Of a DNA stretch of 64,000 bases, positions 1 to 12,651 are shown one piece after another (position 1 is the stretch's first letter; the number at the start of each line of letters is the position of its first letter). The notes under the pieces are model-generated. The model saw nothing but the letters and a program-made list of their open reading frames with translations. It was not told where the DNA came from and made no database searches. This DNA comes from Escherichia phage EscoHU1. The DNA is taken from sequence record NC_133119.1; one strand, 5' to 3'. A program made the translations under genes and the position numbers.

Positions 1-61
1 GCCCAGAGGTTCCCTAGATGAGAATGAGTCTCATTACCGCCCCGGTACTTAGCAAGCTAAT

Positions 62-96
62 AGTCACACCATGTTATCATTACACAGTGTGACTAT
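62..96. other. Hairpin at window left edge (8-bp stem AGTCACAC/GTGTGACT, 15-nt loop) followed by T-run on plus strand
   Basis: Inverted repeat read directly; function unknown. Confidence 0.3.
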
Positions 97-110
97 TTTA
101 TTTTTAATTG

Positions 111-845
111 TTAGGCAACTTTTAATTTATCAATGAATTGTTGCGGCGTGGTACTATATTCCGCGCGTTCTTCCTCGGTCATACCTTCCCAACACATTTT
201 TAAACGTTCGGCTAGGAATTGATAATCGTTATCATCATCTAACGATTCATCAATAAAGGTTTCACCGATCAATGTTACCCCGATTGATAGGATATCGTTA
301 ACGGCTTGAGCGTCCAGCGTTTTAAATCCAGCATTTGCCGCCGCCGATAATACACCTTTATGATCATCAATCATTGTAAAATCAGCGTTCGGGTATAGCT
401 GTTTAAACAGTTCAAAGTAATAAGATTTATATACAGCGTCTTTGCTGTGGTATATTTCGCTAACCTTATCCGCATCAAAGTATTTATGCAAAGTATCGCG
501 GGAAAATACGCGAATATTACTATTTCCGCGCCCTCTTAGACTTTGTTTACGCAAGAAATAATAATCAGATTTACCCATTAAGCGAGCGGTACAAATAAGG
601 TTTAAGGTATTGGGATCATTCATACATTGGCGCATATATTCAACCAATGGTAATAAGGAATCCTGCATAATTAATTCATGTTTGCAGGCTTCGCGGGAAT
701 ACTTAACTAAATCTAAATTCCCGTTATCGTCAAAGCAAGGCGCTACACGATGGAAAGAATTTATAATCGTTCCGTCTAAATCCCAAATCATAACGCGGGA
801 AATATGCGGGAAAGTGTGGGTAATATTCATGTTGACTTGATTCAT
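111..845 (-). CDS. dmp: 5'-deoxyribonucleotidase (HAD-family phosphatase), T5 dmp-like
   Basis: 244 aa ORF; HAD motif IWDLDGTI near N-terminus; size and leftmost position match T5 dmp. Confidence 0.75.
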   Translation of the reverse strand: MNQVNMNITHTFPHISRVMIWDLDGTIINSFHRVAPCFDDNGNLDLVKYSREACKHELIMQDSLLPLVEYMRQCMNDPNTLNLICTARLMGKSDYYFLRKQSLRGRGNSNIRVFSRDTLHKYFDADKVSEIYHSKDAVYKSYYFELFKQLYPNADFTMIDDHKGVLSAAANAGFKTLDAQAVNDILSIGVTLIGETFIDESLDDDNDYQFLAERLKMCWEGMTEEERAEYSTTPQQFIDKLKVA

Positions 846-932
846 TTGTTACATTCTCCATTTAAGGGATTTAGGTTAATTCAATCTTGCCAGCTAATTA
901 TATTAGATTAGCTGGCAATGTTCAATTAACTA

Positions 933-1325
933 TTAGAACGCCAGACCAAAAGCGAGAGCATCGGCGATAAAGCTAAGATCTTCACCATGTACACTAGAGC
1001 GAATCCCCGCGCAAGTGTAAACCATCGCGCTAGCTTCGGGATTGCAAACCGGACACGGCTTAACAACCGCAAACGCTAGACCGGATTTAAGCGCATCAAT
1101 AATAATTGTTTGCACTGTCAAAGTATCAGCGTAAACGCCTTTTGCTTTTGTATGGCTTGCCACTTTGCCGGTATCATAAGCAAAGGTAGTAACCTGCAAA
1201 GCGTCGTTATAATTCAGCAAATCAAAATTAACTTGCCCCGCTTCGACGTGGTAACGTTCGCCATTAGAATAAACTAGAACGATGGAAGAAGTAGCACGAT
1301 CAAAAGGAATGTTTTGGTTTTTCAT
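933..1325 (-). CDS. hypothetical pre-early protein
   Basis: 130 aa ORF, no overlap. Confidence 0.5.
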   Translation of the reverse strand: MKNQNIPFDRATSSIVLVYSNGERYHVEAGQVNFDLLNYNDALQVTTFAYDTGKVASHTKAKGVYADTLTVQTIIIDALKSGLAFAVVKPCPVCNPEASAMVYTCAGIRSSVHGEDLSFIADALAFGLAF

Positions 1326-1359
1326 GTTTATGACTCCAGATTATTTATATTTACGGGAT

Positions 1360-1638
1360 TTATTGAAAAAATACGTTTAAAGATAAATCAATTTTACGAA
1401 AGTATGTTTCGTCGCCGTCTTTCCTTTCTTGATTAAGGTAATCGCCTGTCATTACCTGAATAGAATCTTTTCCGAAAAAGATCATATTTTCGCCAATATT
1501 ACTATCCCATACGGCATACATTCCCGCGTACATCCCACGGGTAACTAAATAAACGAAACTATCAAAAGACATTTCAGACCATGCAATATCTTCTAAACAA
1601 TTGCTATCGGGGATAGATATATTAATTTTACTAGCCAT
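1360..1638 (-). CDS. hypothetical pre-early protein
   Basis: 92 aa ORF. Confidence 0.45.
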   Translation of the reverse strand: MASKINISIPDSNCLEDIAWSEMSFDSFVYLVTRGMYAGMYAVWDSNIGENMIFFGKDSIQVMTGDYLNQERKDGDETYFRKIDLSLNVFFQ

Positions 1639-1690
1639 TTAATAAACCTTTTATTAATGGCGGTATATTTCAACCGCCGATTAAATTTAA

Positions 1691-3355
1691 TTATGCAAAG
1701 AATTTACCGTTTTTGAAATCAATCAAAGTACGTTGCCCGTTTGCATAGGTAATTAAATGCGTTTGCGTCCAGCTTGACGCGCCCACGTTGTAACCCATAT
1801 CAAGCGACCCCGCCACGCCAGCGGTATAAACGCCGCCGTAAATGCTAGCCGTATGAGTATGACCAGTGTTAAGGCGTCCAAGTTTCTTAAACTGCTTAGG
1901 ATTGCCCCGACTGCCGTTAATGCCATTGTGACCATGTACGCCGCACTCAATGCCAGCGATTTTAAATGACTGGTCAGTAGTCAGGAAAATAGCGTTAAAT
2001 TCGCAACCTGCAACGTTTCTAAGCGCGTAATCTAGCACGTTAAAGGTATCATCCTTTTCAGCAATAGCGGCGTAAATCGCAGCGTTTAGACGGTGATACA
2101 ATTCCGCGTTTGCGGGATCGTCTTTAATGTTAGCGTTACGATCATCAAGCCAGCGTGAAAGAGCTAAATCATGGTTAGATTCCACAATGATTGTTTGAGA
2201 GAAATCACGCTCCATTGATTCTAATACGCGTCCAGTATCGATAAGATCATCAATAACTTTATCACGTCCTGCGGCGTACTGTTTAGCAAGGAATACACCA
2301 CTAGCGCGGTTGTGATGGTTGCGCGATGTAAAATCATGCACATCATGAATAAACTGATATTTAGGCTTGAGAATATCAAGCAAGCTGTTTTCACTAGCCC
2401 ATGATGCAACGGCGCAATCATCATCTAATTTTTCGGCGTGAATATCGCCATATTGCAAGCCTAGAACATGATCGGACGTTTTATAACATCCGGTAGGAGT
2501 AGCGCAAACATTCAAATCATAGAACATTCCGCTTTCATCCATTGTTTCAAGCTGGCGAACGAAAAATTCTCCGTCGTCGTCGAACTCCACCAGCAAAGCG
2601 CCGAAATTATGCAGAGCCTCAGCTTTTTGACCTGCTTTCTGCTGAATGTAGTTTTTAAGCGTAGCCGTTCCGGTTGAATACATACGGCGCACTACTTCAC
2701 CTTTTAACGCTGGCACACTTTCAGCGGTGATTTTAGCGTGACCTATTGCCAGCCCTTCAATATTTAAAGCCGTGGCGGTTTCTGCGAATCCTGAAAGCGG
2801 ATAATCTGCCGTTGGTAAAACGTTAATTTCAGCCATGAAAGCAAAGCGGCGGTTATTCAGGAAAACATTTTTATCGCAGATATATTTATCAAATGCGGGA
2901 TCGTATTTGATTCCTTCTGCACCTTCCCCGTTCTGGAATCCATTTTTATTATAAATGAATTTACTAATCAGCAATTCAGCACCGATATATTCAGCAAATT
3001 TTTCCAGACTTGCTAAAAAGTTTTTATGCGGGAAAGTATTATTTTGAATCGACGTTAGAATAAAACGGCGACCGGATTTAACTTCCCATTGTTCAACGGT
3101 ACTAGAAACAATTCCCGCCGCTTCGGGGCGATCATCATTTTTAATCGCCTTTTCAGCTTTTGCCGCTTTCGGTTTCGCTGGCTTGTTTGCTTCCAGCCAA
3201 TCACAAATCGCGGTTGAATGTTTCGGCGTATCATAAACAGCTTTTGAAATATCGTCGCAAACTTCCAATTTAGTAGCGCGTAAACGCTTACCGTAGAAAT
3301 TAAAATCAGCGGCCATTTTCAAAATTTGAGCTTGTTTTTCTGCGGAAATATTCAT
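1691..3355 (-). CDS. A1: A1-like pre-early protein (calcineurin-like metallophosphoesterase motifs)
   Basis: 554 aa ORF; GDIHAE and ESNHDL motifs; size and position match T5 A1. Confidence 0.7.
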   Translation of the reverse strand: MNISAEKQAQILKMAADFNFYGKRLRATKLEVCDDISKAVYDTPKHSTAICDWLEANKPAKPKAAKAEKAIKNDDRPEAAGIVSSTVEQWEVKSGRRFILTSIQNNTFPHKNFLASLEKFAEYIGAELLISKFIYNKNGFQNGEGAEGIKYDPAFDKYICDKNVFLNNRRFAFMAEINVLPTADYPLSGFAETATALNIEGLAIGHAKITAESVPALKGEVVRRMYSTGTATLKNYIQQKAGQKAEALHNFGALLVEFDDDGEFFVRQLETMDESGMFYDLNVCATPTGCYKTSDHVLGLQYGDIHAEKLDDDCAVASWASENSLLDILKPKYQFIHDVHDFTSRNHHNRASGVFLAKQYAAGRDKVIDDLIDTGRVLESMERDFSQTIIVESNHDLALSRWLDDRNANIKDDPANAELYHRLNAAIYAAIAEKDDTFNVLDYALRNVAGCEFNAIFLTTDQSFKIAGIECGVHGHNGINGSRGNPKQFKKLGRLNTGHTHTASIYGGVYTAGVAGSLDMGYNVGASSWTQTHLITYANGQRTLIDFKNGKFFA

Positions 3356-3463
3356 AACTAAATCAACTCCTATAAAGGGATAAATATTAATACTGGCAAT
3401 ATTGCCAAATATAACGCCTTGCCTGAAGTGAGGACAATTTAAAAGGCGTTATAATTTGCAATA

Positions 3464-3709
3464 TTATTCTAGAATTGGCATAAGACTAGAACTAAACCCG
3501 CAACTAATAGCCAGCGTTAAAAATATAATCGCCAGATATTTTTGTTTATTAGCTTGACGTTTAAACATATCAGCGGCATAAGCTGAATTAATGCCGATAA
3601 TAGAGATTATATATTTGCCGTAATTAAATATAAATATAGCGGCAACTATAAATAAACCTAAAATAAACGCTTCACTAGGAAAGAAAATCATTTTAATAAC
3701 TCCGGTCAA
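3464..3709 (-). CDS. small hydrophobic protein
   Basis: 81 aa ORF with two hydrophobic segments. Confidence 0.4.
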   Translation of the reverse strand: MTGVIKMIFFPSEAFILGLFIVAAIFIFNYGKYIISIIGINSAYAADMFKRQANKQKYLAIIFLTLAISCGFSSSLMPILE

Positions 3710-3720
3710 AGGGAAATTAT

Positions 3721-3740
3721 AGCGGGGAATATTCCCCGCT
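3721..3740. terminator. hairpin AGCGGGGAATATTCCCCGCT between minus-strand genes
   Basis: Perfect palindrome; same motif family as 7003-7023. Confidence 0.4.
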
Positions 3741-3749
3741 AATTAAAAT

Positions 3750-4166
3750 TTATTCACCTGCGGCCTGTTTCACTTCCTCCGCTACGCCTAACAATTGCGC
3801 CACGGCTTCCAGCGTTTCCAGTTTTGCACTTTCCAGACTTGCCAGATCATCAGCGTCTTTAATAACGCCAGCATCAATGGCATGTTTAGCCATAACGCGC
3901 ACATAGTGAGCTTTACGGACACTAGACCCGCCGCCAACTTTACGCGGTTTATCGCTTTTCTGGTACGCTTTTGCGCTTGTCAGTTTAGAACGTACAGACA
4001 CCGGACTAGCAGCGCCAACGGCGGCGGCAATTTCTTTTAAGCCGTCACTATTCGCAAACTCAATCCCGCTTTTAGCGACCATTTCAGAATACATAGAAAC
4101 AGCCTTTTCGGTGTTTTCTTCGTTCCAAGAAAATTTTGCGGTTTTTTCGGTTTTAACGTTAGACAT
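3750..4166 (-). CDS. A2: A2-like pre-early protein
   Basis: 138 aa basic/acidic ORF directly downstream of A1; size matches T5 A2. Confidence 0.55.
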   Translation of the reverse strand: MSNVKTEKTAKFSWNEENTEKAVSMYSEMVAKSGIEFANSDGLKEIAAAVGAASPVSVRSKLTSAKAYQKSDKPRKVGGGSSVRKAHYVRVMAKHAIDAGVIKDADDLASLESAKLETLEAVAQLLGVAEEVKQAAGE

Positions 4167-4266
4167 AATTTAATACTCCATTCAATTATTAATTAAGGGA
4201 TTATGATTAACTAATGTTAATCCATATATTCCCCATATTTCAGGGGAATATAAAAGTAACACTAAT

Positions 4267-4518
4267 TTATGCTATGGCTTGCCATTTATCATCTTTCTGA
4301 ATGACCTTTACAACGTCGCCAGATTTAACACGGACGTTATAAATCGGCTTGCCGTTGTTGCTACGTTCCGTTTCCGCGTAAACCGCTTCGATTTTATCGA
4401 AAGGATCAAGCGCCGCACCTTTGATACGTTCGGCTTTTCCGGTTAATTCATCAGTTTTAGTTACAAAAGGAATGAAAACAGATTGACCTACTTTCGGCGC
4501 GGTAATAACGTTTTGCAT
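4267..4518 (-). CDS. hypothetical protein
   Basis: 83 aa ORF. Confidence 0.45.
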   Translation of the reverse strand: MQNVITAPKVGQSVFIPFVTKTDELTGKAERIKGAALDPFDKIEAVYAETERSNNGKPIYNVRVKSGDVVKVIQKDDKWQAIA

Positions 4519-4682
4519 TTTTAATACTCCGGTTTATTGGGGATTATTCCACAATAGCGCCTCGATACTTTGAAACGCTATTAGATTATAATCCGCTAGG
4601 AGTTAGCCTAAACATTACCGTTATCCAAATTTTTAAAGAGCAGTTACTACGGGGAACATCTTAAAACCTATCGGCTAGCGTG

Positions 4683-4901
4683 TCAAGCGTTTTTTAAACT
4701 TTTTTCGATTTGATGTGAGTTATATAAATCAATCATTATATTACGCCACACCATTTCCAGCCCTTGTTGCTTGCCTTTCTTGTATTGCTTGAATCTGTAT
4801 TTTACAGATCGTTGCGCTACTGTCAACAAATTTTTTGTTCTGCTATCCAGTGGGCTAGCAGGTTTCGCACTAATCACTAAAGCGTTTTTTGATTTGATCA
4901 T
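4683..4901 (-). CDS. hypothetical basic protein
   Basis: 72 aa ORF. Confidence 0.3.
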   Translation of the reverse strand: MIKSKNALVISAKPASPLDSRTKNLLTVAQRSVKYRFKQYKKGKQQGLEMVWRNIMIDLYNSHQIEKSLKNA

Positions 4902-5287
4902 TATCGTCGATTCCTTATATTATATAAGTTTACCGCCGATAGGCTTTAAGATATTCCCTAATTTTTAAAGAGCATGGCGGTAAACTTCCCCGCCGTTGTA
5001 GTCTGGCCTTTCGTTTCCGTCTTGCCGTCCTACGAGATAAATAATAGGTTATTCCCGAAAATGGCGCAAGCATATTTTTGTAAAGAAACGTAAAGAAAAC
5101 CACTACTCGCAAACGTCCAGCGGCGCACTAAATTTAATGAAACGGGCGCGCGAATAACACCAAAACAACCATTTTAGCAAGTAATTTTTTCATTTATATT
5201 TGCTTTGCCCTACTTGACAAAATCTAAAATCCTCGTGGTGAGGTTTTCTCGGTGTACCCCTTATGATTGCCTATCTTTTCCTTTGAG

Positions 5288-5319
5288 GCGCTTAGAATCG
5301 CTTACAGAGCGTTTTAGAC
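5288..5319. repeat. 32-bp repeat copy 1 (GCGCTTAGAATCGCTTACAGAGCGTTTTAGAC)
   Basis: Near-identical copy at 9065-9096. Confidence 0.6.
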
Positions 5320-5647
5320 CCTGTTAATAACTTATACAAAAAGCAAAAATGAAATTTAATGAATTATCCACTTGATTTTTCAAAAAAGTATTTTCTGCTG
5401 TTATTTTTCATTGACAAATAAGTTTAGGCGTGTATCAGACCCTTAGCAGACTAACAATCGCTAGGATGATAATCACGCTGGTGGATTGTAACAGCCGAAA
5501 CAGTTAGCAGACTATTAATACTCTAAAAACCTATTAGCCAACTAACTATTTCATATTATATAATATACTTATAAATTAAAGAGAAATAATAACTATAAGA
5601 AACTATCGGCTAAGTGAGAACCACTATCATTTAGGTTATTCACAAAG

Positions 5648-5656
5648 TTATCCACA
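5648..5656 (+). promoter_or_regulatory. DnaA box TTATCCACA
   Basis: Perfect 9-mer consensus. Confidence 0.5.
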
Positions 5657-5696
5657 GCACAAAATAACTTGACGCAATAGGCGACGTTTTGGCGAC

Positions 5697-5705
5697 TTAT
5701 CCACA
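5697..5705 (+). promoter_or_regulatory. DnaA box TTATCCACA
   Basis: Perfect 9-mer consensus, 49 bp from the first. Confidence 0.5.
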
Positions 5706-5725
5706 GACTTATGTACAGGTTATCC

Positions 5726-5745
5726 TACTGTATAAATATACAGGG
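5726..5745. promoter_or_regulatory. LexA-box-like palindrome (CTGT-N8-ACAG core)
   Basis: TACTGTATAAATATACAGGG; core CTGTATAAATATACAG fits the SOS box. Confidence 0.45.
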
Positions 5746-5992
5746 TAGAATGGTAGCAGTAACAACCGCAATCAAATTTAAGCGGCCTAAAACGCGTTCT
5801 AAGCGGTTTTTCAGCATTACCCCTTATTATAATAAAGCCTTGTGTACGCTTACAGAGAGCTAGAAATAGAAAACGCGCGGTTAGCACAAAAATAGGCAGT
5901 AGGCAAGGAATAAAAAACCTTTTCTTTTTTCTTGCCCCTAGCGAACAAATATCTATATCATTCACTCACCGATTAACGAGGGAGACAAAGAA

Positions 5993-6994
5993 ATGTCTAC
6001 TGTAAGAATTGCAGTACCAACAAACGCAACTATTATTAAAGGTAGTTTGCGCAACCTGCTAGATGGTAGTAGTGCGGCAAGTATTCAGCACACCGCCGCA
6101 ATGGTTGAAAAAATTCACGAGGATATTTTAGATAATAATGATACTCATTATTCAGTCGATGATTTCACGCTATTACTAGACCAGACAAGGGCGCTAGTAA
6201 TTTTCAACCGTGATTATCACATTTTCCGTAATAGTCGTGGAACTGATATTGATTTTATCATTGTTGGTTATAGTGAGTCTCATAATGGTTACATTGCGCG
6301 ATTATATAACGTGCAAGAAAAAGAGCAGGTAACAGCAACAAAAGTAAATAGTATCAGGCTTGATAGTGTCGGGTCGTTATTAAATAGTATCTGGCGCGAA
6401 TTATCGTCAAGCTATAAAGGCGCGGATAGTGACGCAATCGAAACAACTGGCGTATTGTGTTTTGAACGCGCTAGCGGTAACATGTTGATTCCTGACGATT
6501 ATTTAGGGTACGGGAATGAATCAAACGTTGCAAACGCTGGATTTACATTAAAACCGCTTGACAACGTAGCAAAACAGGCTGTAGAATCTCAAACTTCAAG
6601 CGCAAATGCGCAAACTACTGAAAATAAAGGAAATATTATGTCTAAAGTATCTTCTATCGTTGCTGCTAATAAATCCGCCGTTGTAAACGCTGCTAAATTG
6701 GAAGCGGGTAAAATTGCACTGACTCAAATCACAAAAGTAGCGGCGAAAAAAGCGCCGTTTATGATTAAAGGGTATATTGATACGCCGATTGGTCGCGTAG
6801 TGATCGCTAACCTGCTGAGTGTAGCGGTTGACCAGTACGCCCCGACTAATGCGAAAGCGAAAGCGGTAGCAGGCGCGGCAATGGAAGCGGCAATGTTGGA
6901 AATGGTACAGAGTTTCAATATTGCGGAAATGATCGATGAAATGGTAAAAGGTATTGACATTTCTACTTTTACCAATAACACCGAAAGCGAGTAA
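5993..6994 (+). CDS. hypothetical protein (plus-strand gene in terminal-repeat region)
   Basis: 333 aa ORF; GAGGGAGA RBS 8 nt upstream of ATG. Confidence 0.55.
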   Translation: MSTVRIAVPTNATIIKGSLRNLLDGSSAASIQHTAAMVEKIHEDILDNNDTHYSVDDFTLLLDQTRALVIFNRDYHIFRNSRGTDIDFIIVGYSESHNGYIARLYNVQEKEQVTATKVNSIRLDSVGSLLNSIWRELSSSYKGADSDAIETTGVLCFERASGNMLIPDDYLGYGNESNVANAGFTLKPLDNVAKQAVESQTSSANAQTTENKGNIMSKVSSIVAANKSAVVNAAKLEAGKIALTQITKVAAKKAPFMIKGYIDTPIGRVVIANLLSVAVDQYAPTNAKAKAVAGAAMEAAMLEMVQSFNIAEMIDEMVKGIDISTFTNNTESE

Positions 6995-7002
6995 TAATAA
7001 CT

Positions 7003-7023
7003 AGCGGGGATTATTTCCCCGCT
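7003..7023 (+). terminator. rho-independent terminator
   Basis: AGCGGGGA-TTATT-TCCCCGCT hairpin then TTTACTATTT. Confidence 0.55.
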
Positions 7024-7059
7024 TTACTATTTCCCTGCTAATTAATAGGAGACTAATTA

Positions 7060-7554
7060 ATGTCAGAAGAAAAATATGGCTTTTCGCTAGAAAGTGTGAA
7101 TGAAGCTAAACACGATATGATCGTTTTAGTTGATTGTCATACTGGTTATTGCGGGGAGGGCTGGACGGAAGAACATTTTGTTCCCGCTGGCTGTGATCTG
7201 GATGCTTTCGCAAACGAACACGCATATGATAATGCTTCTCGTTTCGGTAGCGATGGGGAAGAAGATGAAGAAACAGGGGAATGGATTGAAAATGATAATG
7301 TATATGCGAGTCTTTATCATTATCAATTGAGTAAGTCCGGTACTTATGTAAATGGCGGCGATCCTATTAATATCGTTATGAAACTAATTATTAAACACGG
7401 TGGCGCGGAAATAATTGGTAACAAGGCGTTATTATACGCAAACCGATTAAAACAGCTTGTTTATATTCCTGATAATTCCCGTTGGGATGAATATGCCGTT
7501 TTACAGAAAGAATTAAAACGCTGTTTCGGCGTGGAAGCATTAGAAATAGTCTAA
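7060..7554 (+). CDS. hypothetical acidic protein
   Basis: 164 aa ORF. Confidence 0.5.
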   Translation: MSEEKYGFSLESVNEAKHDMIVLVDCHTGYCGEGWTEEHFVPAGCDLDAFANEHAYDNASRFGSDGEEDEETGEWIENDNVYASLYHYQLSKSGTYVNGGDPINIVMKLIIKHGGAEIIGNKALLYANRLKQLVYIPDNSRWDEYAVLQKELKRCFGVEALEIV

Positions 7555-7663
7555 TGTAAAGTTTTGTAAAGGTCGCTTTAATCGGCGGCCTTTTTTGTTA
7601 TAATGCCTTTACACCGAAACGGTGGATTGAAAATTTTCCCAAAATTTTTTGGAGGCGTTAAAA

Positions 7664-7894
7664 ATGGTTGCTTTCTCTTCTTCTGACTCTCTTTTCACTG
7701 GTAAAGGTTGGGTATCTAATCGCTGGATCATTGATCAAATGGTTTCGGAATTTGGGATAGGTAAAACTTATGTTACTATTCAGGCGCTTTATGATAATGA
7801 TCAGATTGACCAGCAAACCGCCGGATTTTTGCTGGACACGTTGAAATCAGAACATTGCACCAAAAAGCAAGCGGCAAAAATCGTTTTAATGTAA
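7664..7894 (+). CDS. hypothetical protein
   Basis: ATG preceded by GGAGG; start trimmed from track ORF 7649. Confidence 0.45.
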   Translation: MVAFSSSDSLFTGKGWVSNRWIIDQMVSEFGIGKTYVTIQALYDNDQIDQQTAGFLLDTLKSEHCTKKQAAKIVLM

Positions 7895-7947
7895 TTAATA
7901 ACGGGGCGTTACTTTCGCCCCTCATTCCCTAACTAGGAGTTAAGCAA

Positions 7948-8160
7948 ATGTTAAAGAATGTTTCCCTTGCCCGTTCTAAAGGTTTTAAGCTGGTGGATGT
8001 TAACACGTTCGAGCGTCCAGATTGTAAAATCGAATATGTAGCACGCAACAAAAACGCTTTCCGTGTTACAGAAAAGAAATTTGACAAGCGCGGAAATTTG
8101 GTAGCCGAAACGGTTAAACACTTTGCCACCTTTTACGCTGCGTTTCGTGGGGTGTTATGA
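7948..8160 (+). CDS. hypothetical protein
   Basis: 70 aa ORF with AGGAG RBS. Confidence 0.45.
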   Translation: MLKNVSLARSKGFKLVDVNTFERPDCKIEYVARNKNAFRVTEKKFDKRGNLVAETVKHFATFYAAFRGVL

Positions 8161-8269
8161 GATCCTTATATATTGCTCTAGCGTTTGCTACCGTTGGCGT
8201 TGTATGTTCCGTCGCCGCATTTGTTTTAAAAATGTACCTGATATTTTCCCAGCTTTAGGAGCTTGACAA

Positions 8270-8617
8270 ATGGTTATTTACGAGGGCAATCGTTTTGTTG
8301 CTAATTGCCGTCCGGCATTATTAGCAAACTATTTAAATCAGCTTTCACCAGTTTATAAAGGTGTGGTTAATATCTATGAAGGCAAAGCACATTATAAAAT
8401 TTCTGCCGTTGTCGCTCGCGAGCTTGCCTTTCAGTTTCTTACTTTTAACTCATGCGATATTCAGGTTATGGGTGAGTCATTAGTAGCAGAAAATGAAAAT
8501 GAATTTATTGACATTTTCCGCAAAGTATGTACCGAGCGCCTGATTATGAAAGGCGCATATATTCAATCAACCGCTGATAGTATTGAAACAGCGTTTCGAA
8601 AAATTGCATATGAATAG
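8270..8617 (+). CDS. hypothetical protein
   Basis: 115 aa ORF with AGGAG RBS. Confidence 0.5.
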   Translation: MVIYEGNRFVANCRPALLANYLNQLSPVYKGVVNIYEGKAHYKISAVVARELAFQFLTFNSCDIQVMGESLVAENENEFIDIFRKVCTERLIMKGAYIQSTADSIETAFRKIAYE

Positions 8618-8740
8618 CTGGTGGCGTAAAACGCAAAGTCACAAATCTAATAATACCGCTGGGAAACATTCCCAGCGTTTACGATTTGGTAATGGCTTCA
8701 CAATGATATTGATAATCATTCTCATTCTAGGAGCAATGGC

Positions 8741-8980
8741 ATGGCTGTAAGAATTTTACGATATGTAGAACGTAAAGAAACCGATATTATGCAGCATCAT
8801 TTAACTGATGCGCAATATGCGCAATTTTTAGAAATGCAGAAAAGCGGAGCTAGTACGGCGGCGCTAGGGGCGTGGATCAATTCAGTTTCAATATGTACGC
8901 ATTTTGATTCATACGGATATACGCCAGCCGAAACCGTCCAGATCTTTGACGACTACGAGAAGGAATACATAGCAGACTAA
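8741..8980 (+). CDS. hypothetical protein
   Basis: 79 aa ORF with AGGAG RBS. Confidence 0.45.
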   Translation: MAVRILRYVERKETDIMQHHLTDAQYAQFLEMQKSGASTAALGAWINSVSICTHFDSYGYTPAETVQIFDDYEKEYIAD

Positions 8981-8986
8981 TAATAA

Positions 8987-9008
8987 CGGGGCGCAACTAC
9001 CGGCCCCG
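8987..9008 (+). terminator. rho-independent terminator
   Basis: CGGGGC-loop-GCCCCG hairpin then CCTTTTCT. Confidence 0.55.
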
Positions 9009-9064
9009 CCTTTTCTGGCCTTCCTCAAATTTCCCCTTGTAAAATACCTCCTCCAAAAATAAAC

Positions 9065-9096
9065 GCGTTAGAATGCGTTACAGAGCGTTTTAGAGC
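9065..9096. repeat. 32-bp repeat copy 2
   Basis: Matches 5288-5319. Confidence 0.6.
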
Positions 9097-9124
9097 TATA
9101 TTAGAGCTATTCACTACACAGGAA

Positions 9125-9144
9125 TACTGTATAAATATACAGTA
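9125..9144. promoter_or_regulatory. LexA-box-like palindrome TACTGTATAAATATACAGTA
   Basis: 20-mer one base from E. coli SOS-box consensus TACTGTATATATATACAGTA. Confidence 0.5.
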
Positions 9145-9152
9145 GAATAACC

Positions 9153-9173
9153 TGTTGATAAGTCTGTTGATAA
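9153..9173 (-). promoter_or_regulatory. tandem DnaA-box-like 9-mers (TTATCAACA x2)
   Basis: TGTTGATAAGTCTGTTGATAA on plus strand; one mismatch to consensus each. Confidence 0.4.
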
Positions 9174-9264
9174 CGCCTCAAAATCGCTAGGATTTTGTCA
9201 GGTCAAATCGTGCTGTTAATAAACCTGTGAATAAATTAAATAACAGTGTTTCTCACTTCACTTT

Positions 9265-9415
9265 GTAAATGCGAGTCATTCTCGTTATCATTCGCGTTTC
9301 CCTTCCTAAATGCAAATCATTCTCATTCGTATTCCGGTAGTCAAATGATAACCATTCTCATTCGCATTCAACTTCTCAAATGCGAATCAATCTCATTATC
9401 ATTCGCATTTTGGCA
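9265..9415. repeat. about 4 direct repeats (~38 bp unit, AAATGCGAATCATTCTCATT...CATTCGC)
   Basis: Units start near 9269, 9310, 9343, 9381; each has internal TGCGAAT/ATTCGCA inverted repeat. Confidence 0.6.
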
Positions 9416-9447
9416 GGCAGGGCATTTTCATTTTGCCCTGCGCTTTT

Positions 9448-10049
9448 GTGCAAATCCGACATTTGCCCCCACGGATTACGTGCCAGCGTGCATGTGCGAA
9501 TCCGACAATTTTTGGTAGTGTGCAAATCCGATGGCAAATATTTTTTATATGTGCGAATCCGACAATGAATTTTCCTAAAAACTCCAGCAATCACGAGTGC
9601 GGCTCGATTCCTGTGGAATTAGCTAGAATATGCGCAGAACCGACAAGCGTTAAGGTGTGCGAATCCGACAAGATTTTTGTGACTTCGATGAGAGGGTGTG
9701 TAATTGTGTGAGTTTGTGGGAGAGTTGATGCAGCGAGAGAAAATTAGAGGAGAAACTGGAGGGTGCAGCTGTGGTGGCGTGAAACGCCTGGTTTGCTGCG
9801 TTTTTGGGGATAATGTGGGATGTTTTGGGATAATTGGGCATGGAGCGAGATAAAGTGAAATTTTATTAGCAAAATGGGGCAAAATCGCTTGACAAGTGAA
9901 AATTCCTGTGGCTCTAAAAACTCAGGCAAACATGGGCCTTCGGCCCGAAATAATGCTGCTATTTTCAGTGTTCATAAAAACTTTGGAGACTCCTATCAAT
10001 GTGCAAATCCGACCATAAATTTCTAGAAACACAGTGTGCAAATCCGACA
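9448..10049. repeat. iteron array: 14-mer GTGCRAATCCGACA in at least 8 copies (presumed first-step-transfer / injection-stop region)
   Basis: Copies at 9448, 9494, 9519, 9551, 9633 (variant), 9657, 10001, 10036; irregular spacing. Confidence 0.65.
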
Positions 10050-10445
10050 GTAATTTCCAGACTGACAAGAGTCAATTATTTTTCCTAGAAATAACCGCCC
10101 TCCCTATAACCGCCCTGTATTAAACCGCCTATTGCTGGAGTTTCTAGGAACATGAAAACCGCCTGAGTTGGCGAGAGAAACAGATTTAAAGTTTAGTGTA
10201 AACTCTAGAGTTAGTGCTCAACTATTCCTAGAAACTTAGGAGTCTAGAGGAAAGTATTGTGCCATCCTAGCAGATGAGCGGCAACCGGTGTATCATCTTG
10301 AACACAAATATTGCCTTTAAATATTATAAGGTAAGTAAAAGTTAATATACCCCCATTTCATGAGAGTTAGCCCCTCTAGGCGCGTGCGATTTAGTACTAT
10401 CATTTTGGTTCTCGTGAGAAAGAACATATTCTAGAACCACTCCTG
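10021..10445. repeat. dispersed TTCTAGAAA-like palindromic motifs
   Basis: Copies near 10021, 10085, 10143, 10235, 10431. Confidence 0.35.
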
Positions 10446-10596
10446 ACGTCGGAACCTATCAATGTTTTTCTTTGAGAAATGCTATTATAATCTACGGCCT
10501 AGAGGTAAAAACAAGTTGATGTTTTTAATCTATGAGATTATTATAACACATTATTCTCACGAATGTCAAGCATATTTCGTTACTTTTAAATTTTTG

Positions 10597-11325
10597 TCAT
10601 GAGTTTGGAGTTGGGTAAATTTTTATGCAACCTTGACTTAATAGATATTCTTCTGCCTCCACAGCCTTAACGTTGAATATCTCTTTTGCTCCATCGAATT
10701 TATAATGGTTAGCAAATTTGTTCTCGAAGAATTTATGTGCTTGATGCTCTAGTTTATAAGCAAGTTCTTTCGATCCTTTCTTATATTGATAGATACCAAA
10801 TACTTCCATATCTTCGAAACCAGGCACACGCAGTTTATCATACTCTAGATTCTTAAACCTTTGATGTGGCTCTCTAGAAACTCCAATCTTTGTCTTTAAT
10901 TTCTTCCTAGACTGATCTTTATTAGAGAAAATATAGAGATATGTAGGAAACTGAACATCCTCTTCTATTTCAGGTTTCTCTATAGGTGTGTTGAGGTTGC
11001 TTTCTCTAGCACATTGTAAACAGCCGTGCCCCTCTAAGTGGGATCTAGCAGTTTGCATAAAATAACCTTTATGCTTGTAACACCATATCTCTACTAGTTG
11101 GGTGGCTGTTTTATACTTAACTCTTTCGTACCCATATTCTTCTTTCTGGACTTTCAAAGCTTTCTTAATAAAGATAAGGTTTAATGCTTCTTGCTGGAAG
11201 TCTGGGTGAAGTTGTCTAATCTTTGTTATATTGGTAGAACCATTTGACTTCAAAAAGTTTTTAAGAGGAAACTTCCTGGCTTCCTCTCGTAGCTTTTCAT
11301 TTATCTCACTGCGTAAATCATCCAT
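10597..11325 (-). CDS. GIY-YIG-like (T5orf172-type) domain protein with N-terminal Cys/His motif
   Basis: 242 aa ORF; PTYLYIFSNKD...KIGVS resembles GIY-YIG/T5orf172 core; HLEGHGCLQCA. Confidence 0.45.
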   Translation of the reverse strand: MDDLRSEINEKLREEARKFPLKNFLKSNGSTNITKIRQLHPDFQQEALNLIFIKKALKVQKEEYGYERVKYKTATQLVEIWCYKHKGYFMQTARSHLEGHGCLQCARESNLNTPIEKPEIEEDVQFPTYLYIFSNKDQSRKKLKTKIGVSREPHQRFKNLEYDKLRVPGFEDMEVFGIYQYKKGSKELAYKLEHQAHKFFENKFANHYKFDGAKEIFNVKAVEAEEYLLSQGCIKIYPTPNS

Positions 11326-12043
11326 CTTTATTAACCTTTAGAATAACTCCTTTTGATGTCATGAAAAGGAATGTCGCTAAATAAGACGCTTCAGAGTTAA
11401 GGGAGGAATAATCCACATTTCCCCTAGGTCTAGTATCTTGTTCAGAGTCAAGAATTGTTGATACATCAAACTTAACAGACTTCGCAATTATTAGGGCTTG
11501 ATCTTGATCACGTAAGATCTCATAATGAGCTGCTAGCAGTGTTGGAGTAGCCTCAACATTGCTATCGATTATACTTAAGTGTAATTGTGCAAGTGTAGAT
11601 ACTATTCCTAGCTTTAGCTCAGACAATGATGAATATGGAGCTGCTGTGAACTTTTGAAGTCTAGGAAGATGGTCATACTCACATTTCTTCGGTGGGATCA
11701 TTAAGATGTTAGGATAACATTCTAATGCTGTCTTTGCTGATCCTTCCTTAAAACGTGGGAGTTCTATATCTGCAAATACATGATATGAATTAGCCGAGAA
11801 TCCTTTAATAGTTGGATCTACTGTTTGGATTAGGCGACGTAAACTTATGTAAGAAGCTGCTAAGGTAACTTCTTCGCAATCTTTATTATACTTAGGCTGT
11901 CCACTGGCGTCTAAGTATGCTGGATAAAATTCTGAACAAAATGCTACTGCATGGGCTTCTAATTCATTAAGTTCAGAGACACGTTTGCCGTTACAGCCCT
12001 TTGCGAGGCTGATAATTTCTGCTAAGTTCTTTTTAATACTCAT
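11318..12043 (-). CDS. hypothetical protein
   Basis: 241 aa ORF, 8-nt overlap with downstream gene. Confidence 0.5.
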   Translation of the reverse strand: MSIKKNLAEIISLAKGCNGKRVSELNELEAHAVAFCSEFYPAYLDASGQPKYNKDCEEVTLAASYISLRRLIQTVDPTIKGFSANSYHVFADIELPRFKEGSAKTALECYPNILMIPPKKCEYDHLPRLQKFTAAPYSSLSELKLGIVSTLAQLHLSIIDSNVEATPTLLAAHYEILRDQDQALIIAKSVKFDVSTILDSEQDTRPRGNVDYSSLNSEASYLATFLFMTSKGVILKVNKDG

Positions 12044-12651
12044 TAACGACCTCTACCAGCTTTATCTGCATCAATAGCTTCGAACACTTTCGTTAACATT
12101 TCTTCAAGCTCTCCTTCTTTGCTAGGATTGCTCAAACGGATAGTGTATGAATTCCTAGAAACTCCGGAGTCTTCTTGTGCTCCGCGATCTTTTGCAAAGC
12201 TCATCATTGCAACGCCAGCTTTATTACACTCGTCTACGCTAGATGCTTCCCCAAACTTATATGATTGTGTATTGCTTACCACGCCACCACAAGGAACATT
12301 GTGCAAATCCGACATTAATCTTTTATCAGAATTAGTCAGAGCAGTAATATGCCAAGGATCAGTACGAGGAATAGTTGTAGTACTCGGGCGGTTCACCTCA
12401 GTCTTCACAAGTTTGTATCCAGCATCGATTAGTGCATTAATCAGATTATCAGCTGGGATGCGAGCCGTGCCGAAGATCTTACGAGCATTCATGAGCTTAG
12501 CCTGAAACTCTTTACAAGCCTGAATATCAATGTGCAAAAACGACAGTTGCATAGATTTAAACTGTACTGTAGCAGTCAGATCTTTAAAGCTGTAATCCCA
12601 TGTATCAAGTTCATGATCTGCAACTACTTTAATGGTTTGTTGTGTAAACAT
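12043..12651 (-). CDS. hypothetical protein (iteron-like 14-mers inside coding sequence)
   Basis: 202 aa ORF; GTGCAAATCCGACA at 12301 and variant at 12532. Confidence 0.5.
   Translation of the reverse strand: MFTQQTIKVVADHELDTWDYSFKDLTATVQFKSMQLSFLHIDIQACKEFQAKLMNARKIFGTARIPADNLINALIDAGYKLVKTEVNRPSTTTIPRTDPWHITALTNSDKRLMSDLHNVPCGGVVSNTQSYKFGEASSVDECNKAGVAMMSFAKDRGAQEDSGVSRNSYTIRLSNPSKEGELEEMLTKVFEAIDADKAGRGR

What the first reader, a model, noticed from the sequence alone, without database searches (positions are those of the whole stretch)
9265..10445. Dense repeat landscape at the presumed terminal-repeat boundary
Four ~38-bp direct repeats are followed by at least eight copies of the 14-mer GTGCRAATCCGACA and scattered TTCTAGAAA palindromes, with no credible coding capacity. 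The position matches what is expected for the T5 injection-stop locus, though I cannot confirm the exact boundary from one copy of the repeat. The irregular spacing points to a protein-binding array.
Basis: partly seen in the sequence, partly recalled or inferred. Interest (0 to 1): 0.5.

Follow-up and report, generated by a model that had tools for sequence, protein, structure and literature searches.

The report
Phage T5-type injection-stop repeat region
This is the well-described non-coding repeat region at the inner end of the left terminal repeat of a T5-like phage, where DNA entry is thought to pause; it is real and strongly conserved, it is already annotated in phage T5, and how it works is still unknown.

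Summary
The repeats are real and far above chance. The window starts at the left end of a T5-like phage genome. Positions 9265-10445 are the colinear counterpart (about 84% identity) of T5 "Repeat Region 3". T5 GenBank records annotate that region repeat by repeat and label it the injection stop signal (iss).

The "38-bp repeats" are T5 direct repeats C1-4. The 14-mers are direct repeats D1-8, with a further copy at 12300. By homology the terminal repeat ends at 9914|9915 (...CCTGTGGCTC|TAAAAAC). That point is supported in about a dozen relatives across two genera, so the interval straddles the boundary.

The best iss candidates start upstream of it, at 9125-9404: a LexA-box-like palindrome, paired DnaA boxes and the C repeats. 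The D repeats bracket the repeat end in every lineage that has them, including a Vibrio phage. About 530 bp of the interval lies outside the terminal repeat, beyond the DNA estimated to enter in the first step.

There is no coding capacity. The locus is already known and its mechanism is unresolved. One new lead: palindrome D matches the SOS-box consensus at 19 of 20 positions and is conserved family-wide.

The parts
5612..5743 (.). Upstream arm (IRC-spacer-IRD) of the 132-nt inverted repeat whose other arm is 9127-9258. It contains the second LexA-box-like palindrome at 5726-5745.
   Evidence: the repeat finder reports 74% complementarity. The CTGT-N8-ACAG scan finds the palindrome. This is the T5 counterpart 6022-6152.
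8985..9009 (+). Palindrome C: a GC hairpin followed by a T run, the putative terminator of the rightward pre-early operon.
   Evidence: Maps to the T5 'palindrome C / putative rho-independent terminator' at 9194-9213.
9125..9144 (.). Palindrome D, TACTGTATAAATATACAGTA. It matches the LexA/SOS-box consensus at 19 of 20 positions.
   Evidence: 38 of 43 related loci keep at least 18 of 20 matches.
9127..9258 (.). IRD'-spacer-IRC', the literature's prime iss candidate. It carries paired DnaA-like boxes at 9153-9161 and 9165-9173 (TGTTGATAA gtc TGTTGATAA) and at 9214-9222 and 9226-9234 (TGTTAATAA acc TGTGAATAA).
   Evidence: Sequence read directly. Mapping to T5 9332-9462. Davison's description. 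Conservation 0.86-0.94.
9263..9404 (+). They contain nested palindromes (T5 palindromes E-I).
   Evidence: Folded as single-stranded DNA, 9255-9445 (the C repeats plus palindrome J) gives z = -5.2. The family consensus was built from 125 units.
9417..9441 (.). Palindrome J, the hairpin GCAGGGCATTTTCATTTTGCCCTGC.
   Evidence: Maps to T5 9650-9666.
9436..9443 (-). CCCTGCGC, the motif of the T5 major single-strand nick at 7.9%. By homology the nick lies on the minus strand between 9443 and 9444.
   Evidence: T5 annotations. The motif is identical in the window. The PhageTerm 'repeat end' of phage Seafire falls 1 nt from this point.
9447..9670 (+). Direct repeats D1-D6 (TGTGCRAATCCGACA), starting at 9447, 9493, 9519, 9550, 9631 (degenerate) and 9656. 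All are in the same orientation and lie inside the terminal repeat.
9801..9839 (+). G-rich direct repeats A2 and A3 (TTTTTGGGGATAATGTGGGATGTTTTGGGATAATTGGG).
   Evidence: GC skew +0.55; the only canonical G4 motif in the window.
9850..9970 (.). Highly conserved block containing the right end of the terminal repeat at 9914|9915 (...TTGACAAGTGAAAATTCCTGTGGCTC | TAAAAACTCAGGC). The hairpin GGGCCTTCGGCCC lies at 9934-9946.
   Evidence: Conservation is 0.92-0.94. Much of this block lies within 9803-9931, the only stretch that blastn aligns to Klebsiella T5-like phages.
10000..10049 (+). Direct repeats D7 and D8, in unique DNA 86 and 121 nt beyond the terminal-repeat end.
10021..10436 (.). Five TYCTAGRA palindromes (10021, 10083, 10142, 10226, 10429) in a CTAG-dense stretch.
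   Evidence: Most are conserved in the alignment.
10091..10163 (+). Four AACCGCC repeats at 10093, 10108, 10123 and 10157.
   Evidence: They are also present in Klebsiella phage Roth50.
10540..10569 (-). Consensus sigma-70 promoter (TTGACA-18-TATAAT, with TG) that fires leftwards into the repeat region.
   Evidence: Both hexamers are conserved in T5, Sepoy, SIY1lw, chee130_1 and Roth50.
12300..12314 (+). Outlying D repeat (T5 'copy 10') inside the minus-strand ORF 12043-12651.

Best explanation
Identity. The interval is the right-hand ~650 bp of the left terminal repeat (1-9914 by homology) plus ~530 bp of adjoining unique DNA of a T5-like phage (Demerecviridae, Markadamsvirinae). It is the ortholog of T5 Repeat Region 3, the iss region. 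It is non-coding, cis-acting DNA built from several conserved modules that probably do different jobs.

(1) Left module, 9125-9404. It consists of a LexA-box-like palindrome, two pairs of DnaA-like boxes and the C repeats. It sits just left of the 7.9% point and is the likeliest arrest determinant. It probably works through host DNA-binding proteins holding or folding the DNA that has just entered, together with its inverted partner at 5612-5743, until the pre-early proteins A1 and A2 release it.

(2) The conserved GCGC site at 9436-9443 is the major 7.9% nick.

(3) The D repeats are same-orientation binding sites for one sequence-specific protein that marks the right end of the terminal repeat rather than the stop itself. 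Six lie 465-256 nt inside the end and two or three lie 86-258 nt outside it. Together with the conserved end block, they are most likely the recognition region for the terminal cut or packaging start on concatemers.

What is shown: the identity, the boundary and the conservation. What is inferred: every functional assignment.
For: Identity:
- The window starts at the genome's left end.
- The pairwise alignment to T5 has 84% mean column identity, and every annotated T5 element maps in order.
- T5 record AY543070 labels the region iss.

Constraint:
- 9030-10130 is 0.75-0.96 conserved in 26 genomes, against 0.45-0.6 for the flanks.
- The whole layout persists in a Klebsiella phage.
- Palindrome D, DnaA boxes, a GCGC hairpin, the D core and CTAG repeats persist in Vibrio phage phi 3, whose A1 protein is only 33% identical.

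Boundary:
- Three independent annotations (T5 10139, SIY1lw 10101, Sepoy PhageTerm 10295) map to the same alignment column, window 9914.
- Seven two-repeat genomes end exactly at ...CCTGTGG[C/A]TC, and an eighth ends 1 nt away.
- In one Klebsiella-type genome the two repeat copies are identical up to that CTC and diverge straight after it.

D repeats as boundary markers:
- Their offsets from the end are nearly invariant (-465, -419, -393, -362, -281/-291, -256 | +86, +121, +258).
- Arrays also flank the end in the Klebsiella-type genome and in a more divergent lineage.
- There are no D copies elsewhere in 64 kb.

Left module:
- The window's only two CTGT-N8-ACAG sites sit in the two arms of the 132-nt inverted repeat.
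- The module is kept even in Proteus phage Stubb, which lacks D repeats.

Host factor:
- Complete DNA ejection occurs in vitro with FhuA proteoliposomes, as cited in Davison 2020. This argues that arrest needs a cellular component.
Against: - No experiment on any module exists. As of 2023-2026 papers still call the iss position undetermined.
- The right terminal repeat of this genome is not in the window, and the genome was not found in other collections. The boundary here therefore rests on homology alone.
- One group of records (chee130_1 and chee24 types) annotates a repeat about 210 bp shorter.
- The packaging direction and the terminase recognition site of T5 are not documented in anything I could read. 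The packaging role of the D repeats is inference from position only.
- The left cut site of T5 has no D repeats nearby.
- Conservation also covers the spacers, so discrete protein sites may not be the whole story.
Confidence: 0.8

Rival explanations
1. One reading: the entire array (C repeats, all D repeats and the CTAG palindromes) is the injection-stop signal. It would be one protein-binding roadblock that arrests DNA transfer.
For: - The region is annotated iss in T5.
- It lies at the 7.9% position.
- It is extremely conserved.
Against: - D7-8, the AACCGCC repeats and the CTAG palindromes lie right of the repeat end. They are beyond the DNA estimated to enter in the first step and are absent from the right repeat, yet they are conserved.
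- Proteus phage Stubb keeps the LexA/DnaA module and the A1/A2 genes but has no D repeats.
Confidence: 0.2
2. Davison's model. Paired DnaA boxes in IRD'-spacer-IRC' and its partner bind membrane-associated DnaA and anchor the incoming DNA. An A1/A2 nuclease then cuts to the right of the block to let the rest of the genome enter.
For: - The four DnaA-like boxes, in pairs 3 bp apart, are present at 9153-9234, and the partner arm is at 5612-5743.
- They are conserved down to Vibrio and Proteus phages.
- The model is set out in bioRxiv 10.1101/866236.
Against: - Only one of the four boxes fits TTWTNCACA exactly.
- No binding or dnaA-mutant data exist.
- The model assigns no role to the C or D repeats.
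- An equally conserved LexA-like box adjoins the DnaA boxes, and the model does not account for it.
Confidence: 0.2
3. The region is a replication origin of the plasmid type. DnaA boxes would be followed by AT-rich repeats (C) acting as the unwinding element and by iterons (D) bound by a phage initiator.
For: The order DnaA boxes - AT-rich repeats (GC 0.33-0.40) - same-orientation short repeats resembles iteron origins. Davison notes the oriC-like look.
Against: - T5 origins were mapped near the genome centre, and the replication genes are not in the first-step DNA (Davison 2020).
- The region sits between convergent transcription units, with no initiator gene beside it.
- The D repeats straddle the repeat end.
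Confidence: 0.07
4. Arrest is caused by DNA structure alone. Cruciforms, hairpins or a knot formed by the nested palindromes and the 132-nt inverted repeat would jam the channel, with no sequence-specific proteins involved.
For: - The stretch 9255-9445 (C repeats plus palindrome J) folds far better than shuffles as a single strand (z = -5.2).
- There are many palindromes.
- There is a long inverted repeat.
Against: - Ejection is complete in vitro, so the DNA itself does not jam.
- The motifs are conserved as sequence and not merely as pairing potential. The D repeats are not palindromic, and the LexA- and DnaA-like boxes match protein-binding consensus sequences.
Confidence: 0.08
5. The region encodes small proteins, as several GenBank records annotate. 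Examples are a 176-aa CDS in Seafire and more than a dozen tiny CDSs in MM-1.
For: 'Hypothetical protein' features overlie the region in many records. A minus-strand ORF at 9619-9882 recurs in some relatives.
Against: - No PHROG family is hit.
- ORFs shift frame and extent between relatives.
- Substitutions are even across codon positions, and amino-acid identity is well below nucleotide identity.
- The T5 records shown call no gene here.
Confidence: 0.03

Closest known systems
Phage T5 'Repeat Region 3' / injection stop signal (iss). Sources: GenBank AY587007 features 9194-10409; AY543070 misc_feature 9140..10149; Davison 2020, bioRxiv 10.1101/866236. From memory: Heusterspreute et al. 1987, Wang et al. 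2005.
   Same: - It occupies the same place in the genome, between the rightward pre-early genes and the leftward early genes.
- The order of elements is the same: palindrome C, palindrome D, IRD'-spacer-IRC', C1-4, palindrome J, nick motif, D1-6, A2-3, repeat end, D7-8, plus the outlying D copy inside a gene.
- Mean column identity is 84%.
- The D spacing is identical (46, 26, 31, 81, 25, 344, 35).
   Different: - D5 is degenerate (TGCGCAGAACCGACA) and D9 is lost.
- C2 is shortened, and the C region has 17-nt and 11-nt deletions.
- Palindrome J is 8 nt longer.
- The terminal repeat is 9,914 bp by homology, against 10,139 bp in T5.
Terminase recognition regions made of repeated binding sites next to a cut site: lambda cosB R-sites beside cosN, SPP1 pacL/pacR around pacC, and the repeat arrays at the T7 concatemer junction. 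This comparison comes from general knowledge and not from a tool.
   Same: Short same-sequence repeats are clustered within a few hundred bp on both sides of a precisely conserved genome end. The end lies in the most conserved block of the region.
   Different: - No T5 small terminase or its binding site has been defined.
- The repeats lie 86-465 nt from the cut, further than in lambda.
- The other (left) cut site has no such repeats.
- This is a functional analogy only.
LexA operator (SOS box, TACTG(TA)5CAGTA) and DnaA box (TTWTNCACA) of gamma-proteobacteria.
   Same: - Palindrome D matches the SOS box at 19 of 20 positions, with both CTGT/ACAG arms intact.
- One box (TTATTCACA) fits the DnaA consensus, and three differ by one or two bases.
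   Different: - The sites are in a virulent phage's non-coding terminal region and not at a known promoter.
- No binding has been tested.

Membership tests
T5-type iss / Repeat Region 3 | It lies at the right end of the left terminal repeat, between the rightward pre-early operon and the leftward early genes. | tested here: met
   ORF map, synteny with SIY1lw, Sepoy and T5, and the window starting at the genome end.
T5-type iss / Repeat Region 3 | IRD'-spacer-IRC' carries two pairs of DnaA-type boxes 3 bp apart, and an inverted partner lies upstream. | tested here: met
   Boxes at 9153-9173 and 9214-9234. The spacer length is the same as in T5, with no indels. The partner is at 5612-5743.
T5-type iss / Repeat Region 3 | Four C repeats with nested palindromes, followed by palindrome J. 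| tested here: met
T5-type iss / Repeat Region 3 | Nine or ten D repeats (TGTGCRAATCCGACA) in one orientation with the canonical spacing. | tested here: met
   Eight of the nine regional copies are present (one degenerate, D9 lost), plus the copy inside a gene. The spacing is identical to T5 and about 30 other genomes.
T5-type iss / Repeat Region 3 | The terminal repeat ends inside the region, at ...CCTGTGGMTC|TAAAAAC. | tested here: inconclusive
   The motif is present at 9889-9914, and the boundary is confirmed in about a dozen relatives. This genome's second repeat copy is not available.
T5-type iss / Repeat Region 3 | A single-strand nick at the GCGC site (~7.9%). | not testable with these tools
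   The motif CCCTGCGC is conserved at 9436-9443. Indirect support comes from the Seafire PhageTerm terminus 1 nt away.
T5-type iss / Repeat Region 3 | DNA transfer actually pauses here until A1 and A2 are made. | not testable with these tools
   ORFs at the positions of T5 A1 and A2 are present (1691-3355 and 3750-4166, minus strand). The A1 ORF is confirmed by tblastn. No functional data exist.
Terminase recognition (cos/pac-like) site | It contains the exact, conserved cut position that generates a genome end. | tested here: met
   By homology, at 9914|9915.
Terminase recognition (cos/pac-like) site | The repeats are bound by the small terminase or an accessory protein and are required for cutting or packaging. 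| not testable with these tools
   Only positional evidence exists. No literature was found.
Iteron-type replication origin | DnaA boxes, an AT-rich unwinding element and iterons lie next to an initiator gene, and replication starts there. | tested here: not met
   The first three are present. There is no adjacent initiator gene. T5 origins are reported to lie near the genome centre.
LexA operator (SOS box) | CTGT-N8-ACAG with an AT-rich spacer close to TACTG(TA)5CAGTA. | tested here: met
   9125-9144 matches 19/20 and 5726-5745 matches 17/20. These are the only two such sites in 64 kb, and they are conserved in 38 of 43 loci. Binding was not tested.
Fur box | A 19-bp GATAATGATAATCATTATC or 7-1-7 TGATAATNATTATCA palindrome. 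| tested here: inconclusive
   C units match 13-17 of 19, and the rate of >=14/19 hits is 38-fold above the flanks. However, the family core TGAGAATCATTCTCA differs at a symmetric position, T4 to G. From memory, that position is T in the Fur, Zur and PerR boxes.

The most novel reading that the evidence does not exclude
The universally conserved left module of the iss region is a landing pad for host global DNA-binding proteins. It would combine a near-perfect LexA operator (palindrome D, 19/20), immediately followed by paired DnaA boxes and duplicated in inverted orientation 3.4 kb upstream, possibly with Fur-family-like C repeats. On this reading, first-step arrest, or the pre-early programme during it, is executed or gated by LexA and DnaA and is therefore coupled to host SOS or replication state. 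The LexA match is not mentioned in Davison 2020 and was not found in the searchable literature.
Probability: 0.2. Interest if true: 0.6.

Novelty: already known. Interest (0 to 1): 0.28.

Why it matters
How T5 stops DNA entry after ~8% and restarts it has been open since the 1960s, and the cis-acting signal has never been dissected.

This window adds no new kind of element. It does show that the layout is kept almost base for base in another lineage.

The comparison separates three things:
- A family-wide module (LexA-like box plus DnaA boxes) found from E. coli phages to Vibrio and Proteus phages.
- A D-repeat array that tracks the terminal-repeat end on both sides.
- A part that lies outside the terminal repeat altogether.

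That split gives concrete mutagenesis targets, host mutants to test (lexA, dnaA) and a defined probe for finding the D-repeat binder.

It also has a practical use. It fixes the terminal-repeat end for genome annotation, and it flags records where the nick or a short assembly was taken for the end.

Tried and rejected
- Rfam search of 8500-11000 at E <= 1 on both strands: no hit. No known RNA family is present.
- PHROGs search on six local ORFs: nothing. The coding reading was rejected.
- Search for this exact genome, to find its right terminal repeat: a 33-mer from 9747-9779 is absent from IMG/VR and JGI metagenomes. The best GenBank relatives are only 87-94% identical in this region.
- BLAST of the C-repeat region against E. 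coli genomes, looking for host operator look-alikes: no match.
- Fur-box idea for the C repeats. It is enriched, but the family consensus departs from the Fur box at a symmetric position. It was downgraded to a weak lead.
- G-quadruplex idea. The window's only canonical G4 motif is at 9806-9838, but T5 lacks four G-runs there. Only the G-richness is conserved.
- D repeat as a determinant of nicking. No D copies lie near the expected 18.5% and 32.6% nick positions, so it was rejected as a general nick signal.
- Resemblances of the D repeat to CRP and IHF sites and to a tRNA T-arm were checked by eye and dropped as poor fits.
- The shorter repeat ends annotated for chee130_1 (maps to window 9704) and Seafire (maps to the nick) were examined and judged to be annotation artefacts rather than true alternative ends.
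- Davison 2015 could not be retrieved.
Full report
**What is in the sequence.**
Reading 8800-11000 and running the repeat finders confirms the observation.

- Four imperfect units with a period of about 35 nt lie at 9263-9404.
- They are followed by a same-orientation short repeat, TGTGCRAATCCGACA.
A degenerate eighth copy at 9632 is visible only by homology. One more exact copy lies at 12301.
- Window-wide there are 11 hits at <=2 mismatches against 0.49 expected, and no shuffle reaches 11.
- The 12-nt core GTGCRAAWCCGA occurs 8 times, all on the + strand between 9448 and 12301, and nowhere else in 64 kb.
- TTCTAGAAA is exact only once. The looser palindrome TYCTAGRA has 5 of its 17 window sites in 10021-10436. 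CTAG reaches the window's maximum density there, 9 in 450 nt.

**Whose genome this is.**
- BLAST against GenBank phages gives more than 500 T5-like records (Tequintavirus, Epseptimavirus and Klebsiella T5-like phages) at 86-94% identity. None is identical.
- Window position 1 aligns with position 1 of the terminal repeat of SIY1lw, and window position 2 aligns with position 1 of Sepoy. The window therefore begins at the physical left end.
- ORFs at the positions of dmp, A1 (1691-3355, minus strand) and A2 (3750-4166, minus strand) are in the expected order. The A1 ORF is confirmed by tblastn.

**Element-by-element identity with T5.**
GenBank AY587007 annotates every repeat of this region. AY543070 labels 9140..10149 'injection stop signal (iss)' and marks the major nick. 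A pairwise alignment (84% mean column identity) maps each feature onto the window:

| T5 element | Window position |
|---|---|
| Palindrome C / terminator | 8985-9009 |
| Palindrome D | 9125-9144 |
| IRD'-spacer-IRC' | 9127-9258 |
| Repeats C1-4 (the '38-bp repeats') | 9263-9404 |
| Palindrome J | 9417-9441 |
| Nick motif CCCTGCGC | 9436-9443 |
| Repeats D1-6 (starts) | 9447, 9493, 9519, 9550, 9631, 9656 |
| Repeats A2-3 | 9801-9839 |
| Repeats D7-8 (starts) | 10000, 10035 |
| Repeat D10 | 12300 |

D9 is lost. The inverted partner of IRD'-spacer-IRC' is at 5612-5743.

Davison's comparative paper (bioRxiv 10.1101/866236) describes exactly this structure in 25 T5-like phages. It calls IRD'-spacer-IRC' and the adjacent repeats the likely iss and assigns no role to the D repeats. 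[quoted passage not shown] The locus is therefore already known, and its mechanism is not.

**The terminal-repeat boundary.**
Homology is nevertheless unusually consistent.

- The repeat ends annotated for T5 (10139), SIY1lw (10101) and Sepoy (PhageTerm, 10295) fall in the same alignment column, window 9914.
- Seven IMG/VR genomes that carry both repeats end exactly at ...TTGACAAGTGAAAATTYCTGTGGMTC, and an eighth ends 1 nt away.
- In a Klebsiella-type genome the two copies are identical up to that CTC and diverge immediately after it.
- A more divergent lineage ends at a recognisably homologous motif.
- Two discordant annotations have simple explanations. The chee130_1/chee24 group stops about 210 bp early. 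Seafire's PhageTerm 'end' is 1 nt from the conserved nick.

**Conservation.**
- In an alignment of 26 distinct genomes, 9030-10130 is 0.75-0.96 conserved, while the coding flanks are 0.45-0.6.
- Peaks lie at IRC', at the nick plus D1, at D2-3 and in the 9850-9970 end block.
- 9803-9931, which includes much of the end block, is the only stretch that blastn aligns to Klebsiella T5-like phages.
- Read directly, Klebsiella phage Roth50 keeps the whole order of modules.
- Vibrio cholerae phage phi 3, whose A1 is 33% identical, keeps palindrome D, DnaA boxes, a GC hairpin with GCGC, at least 8 copies of the D core and CTAG-containing repeats.
- Proteus phage Stubb has the same non-coding gap and LexA/DnaA-like sites but no D core.

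**No coding capacity.**
- No PHROG family is hit.
- ORFs differ in frame and extent between relatives.
- The recurrent minus-strand ORF 9619-9882 evolves without codon-position bias: substitutions fall 16/20/20, nucleotide identity is 76% and amino-acid identity is 54%.
- There is no Rfam match.

**How it most likely works.** Everything in this section is inference.

The interval is not one device.

The arrest point measured in T5 (about 7.9%, around 9618-9668 in T5 coordinates) corresponds to the C4/palindrome J/D1 neighbourhood here. DNA to the left has entered the cell. DNA to the right is still in the virion. Because ejection is complete in vitro, a cellular component is probably needed for the stop. 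The most widely conserved module, 9125-9404, sits exactly where just-entered DNA would meet cytoplasmic or membrane proteins. I take it as the arrest determinant, with a sub-claim probability of about 0.4.

The D repeats behave differently:
- They bracket the repeat end at fixed offsets (-465 to -256 and +86 to +258).
- They do so in lineages with different copy numbers.
- Part of the array lies outside the terminal repeat.

If the left end leaves the capsid first, it was packaged last. Packaging would then start at the right end of the repeat. That would place D1-6, the G-rich A repeats and the end block on the packaged side of the cut, much as cosB lies beside cosN in lambda. I therefore favour the D repeats as end-marking or packaging sites, with a sub-claim probability of about 0.3-0.35. 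No T5 literature on this could be found, and the left cut site has no D repeats.

**A new lead just outside the interval.**
- Palindrome D, TACTGTATAAATATACAGTA, matches the LexA consensus TACTGTATATATATACAGTA at 19 of 20 positions.
- The only other CTGT-N8-ACAG site in the window is its inverted-repeat partner at 5726.
- 38 of 43 related loci keep at least 18 of 20 matches. They carry two variants that are each other's reverse complement.
- LexA-like boxes occupy the equivalent two places in the Proteus and Vibrio phages.
- Davison 2020 does not mention LexA, and library searches found nothing.
- The C repeats also look Fur-like: hits of >=14/19 are 38-fold enriched. But their consensus core TGAGAATCATTCTCA differs from the Fur 7-1-7 box at a symmetric position, so that lead is weak.

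**Verdict.**
The feature is already known. Interest is modest. The value added is the exact boundary, the split into modules and the LexA-box lead.

Noticed in passing
window 9125-9144 and 5726-5745: Palindrome D matches the LexA SOS-box consensus at 19/20 and its inverted-repeat partner at 17/20. These are the only two CTGT-N8-ACAG sites in 64 kb. They are conserved across T5-like phages, including Proteus and Vibrio members. I found no mention of this in the accessible literature.
   Followed up: partly
window 10540-10569 (minus strand): A perfect sigma-70 consensus promoter (TTGACA-18-TATAAT, with TG) in unique DNA fires leftwards into the CTAG/D7-8 region towards the repeat end. A terminator-like hairpin lies at 10174-10159. 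Both hexamers are conserved in T5 and a Klebsiella phage. What it transcribes is unknown.
   Followed up: partly
window 8705-8723; also 20-38, 215-239, 6131-6152: Fur-box-like 19-mers are concentrated in the terminal repeat. The best one (GATATTGATAATCATTCTC, 17/19) sits 18-36 nt upstream of the ATG of ORF 8741-8980 and belongs to the same repeat family as the C units.
   Followed up: partly
window 9650-9875 and 9806-9838: The last ~250 bp before the terminal-repeat end are strongly G-over-C skewed on the + strand (+0.55). They hold the only canonical G-quadruplex motif in the window. The G-richness is conserved in relatives, but the four-run motif is not present in T5.
   Followed up: partly
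window 9569-9591 and 10131-10153: A 23-nt inverted repeat (91% complementary) straddles the terminal-repeat end, with arms 334 nt inside and 228 nt outside it. Both arms are conserved in T5.
   Followed up: no
L006 (Seafire NC_048110) 823; L001 (chee130_1 MF431736) 3705: Seafire's PhageTerm 'terminal repeat end' falls 1 nt from the conserved 7.9% nick site. This suggests the nick was taken for a terminus. The chee130_1/chee24 group annotates repeats about 210 bp shorter than other T5-like genomes.
   Followed up: partly
relatives of window 9265-10445 in GenBank (for example L007 MM-1, L006 Seafire, L003 Sepoy): Many records annotate strings of tiny 'hypothetical protein' CDSs, or a 176-aa CDS, over this non-coding repeat region. 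These are very likely over-calls.
   Followed up: partly
hits H102, H103 (SA001, SG_WM_RUS_R2) and loci L044, L057: Some relatives carry an HNH homing-endonuclease gene inserted inside the D-repeat region, between D3 or D4 and D5. The array therefore tolerates a ~0.5-kb insertion at that point.
   Followed up: no
searches hit lists: T5-like sequences are deposited as 'Listeria phage', 'Campylobacter phage' and 'Microcystis phage' records. These are probably contaminant or mislabelled entries.
   Followed up: no
L075 (Vibrio phage phi 3) 7333-7512 and 7596-7800: In the Vibrio relative the C-repeat position is occupied by five exact 30-nt tandem repeats (ATTAGCTAGAACTAATAAAGGTAAGGCTAA). The D core is arranged as 17-nt tandem repeats. 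The annotated repeat end lies inside a 107-nt duplication.
   Followed up: no
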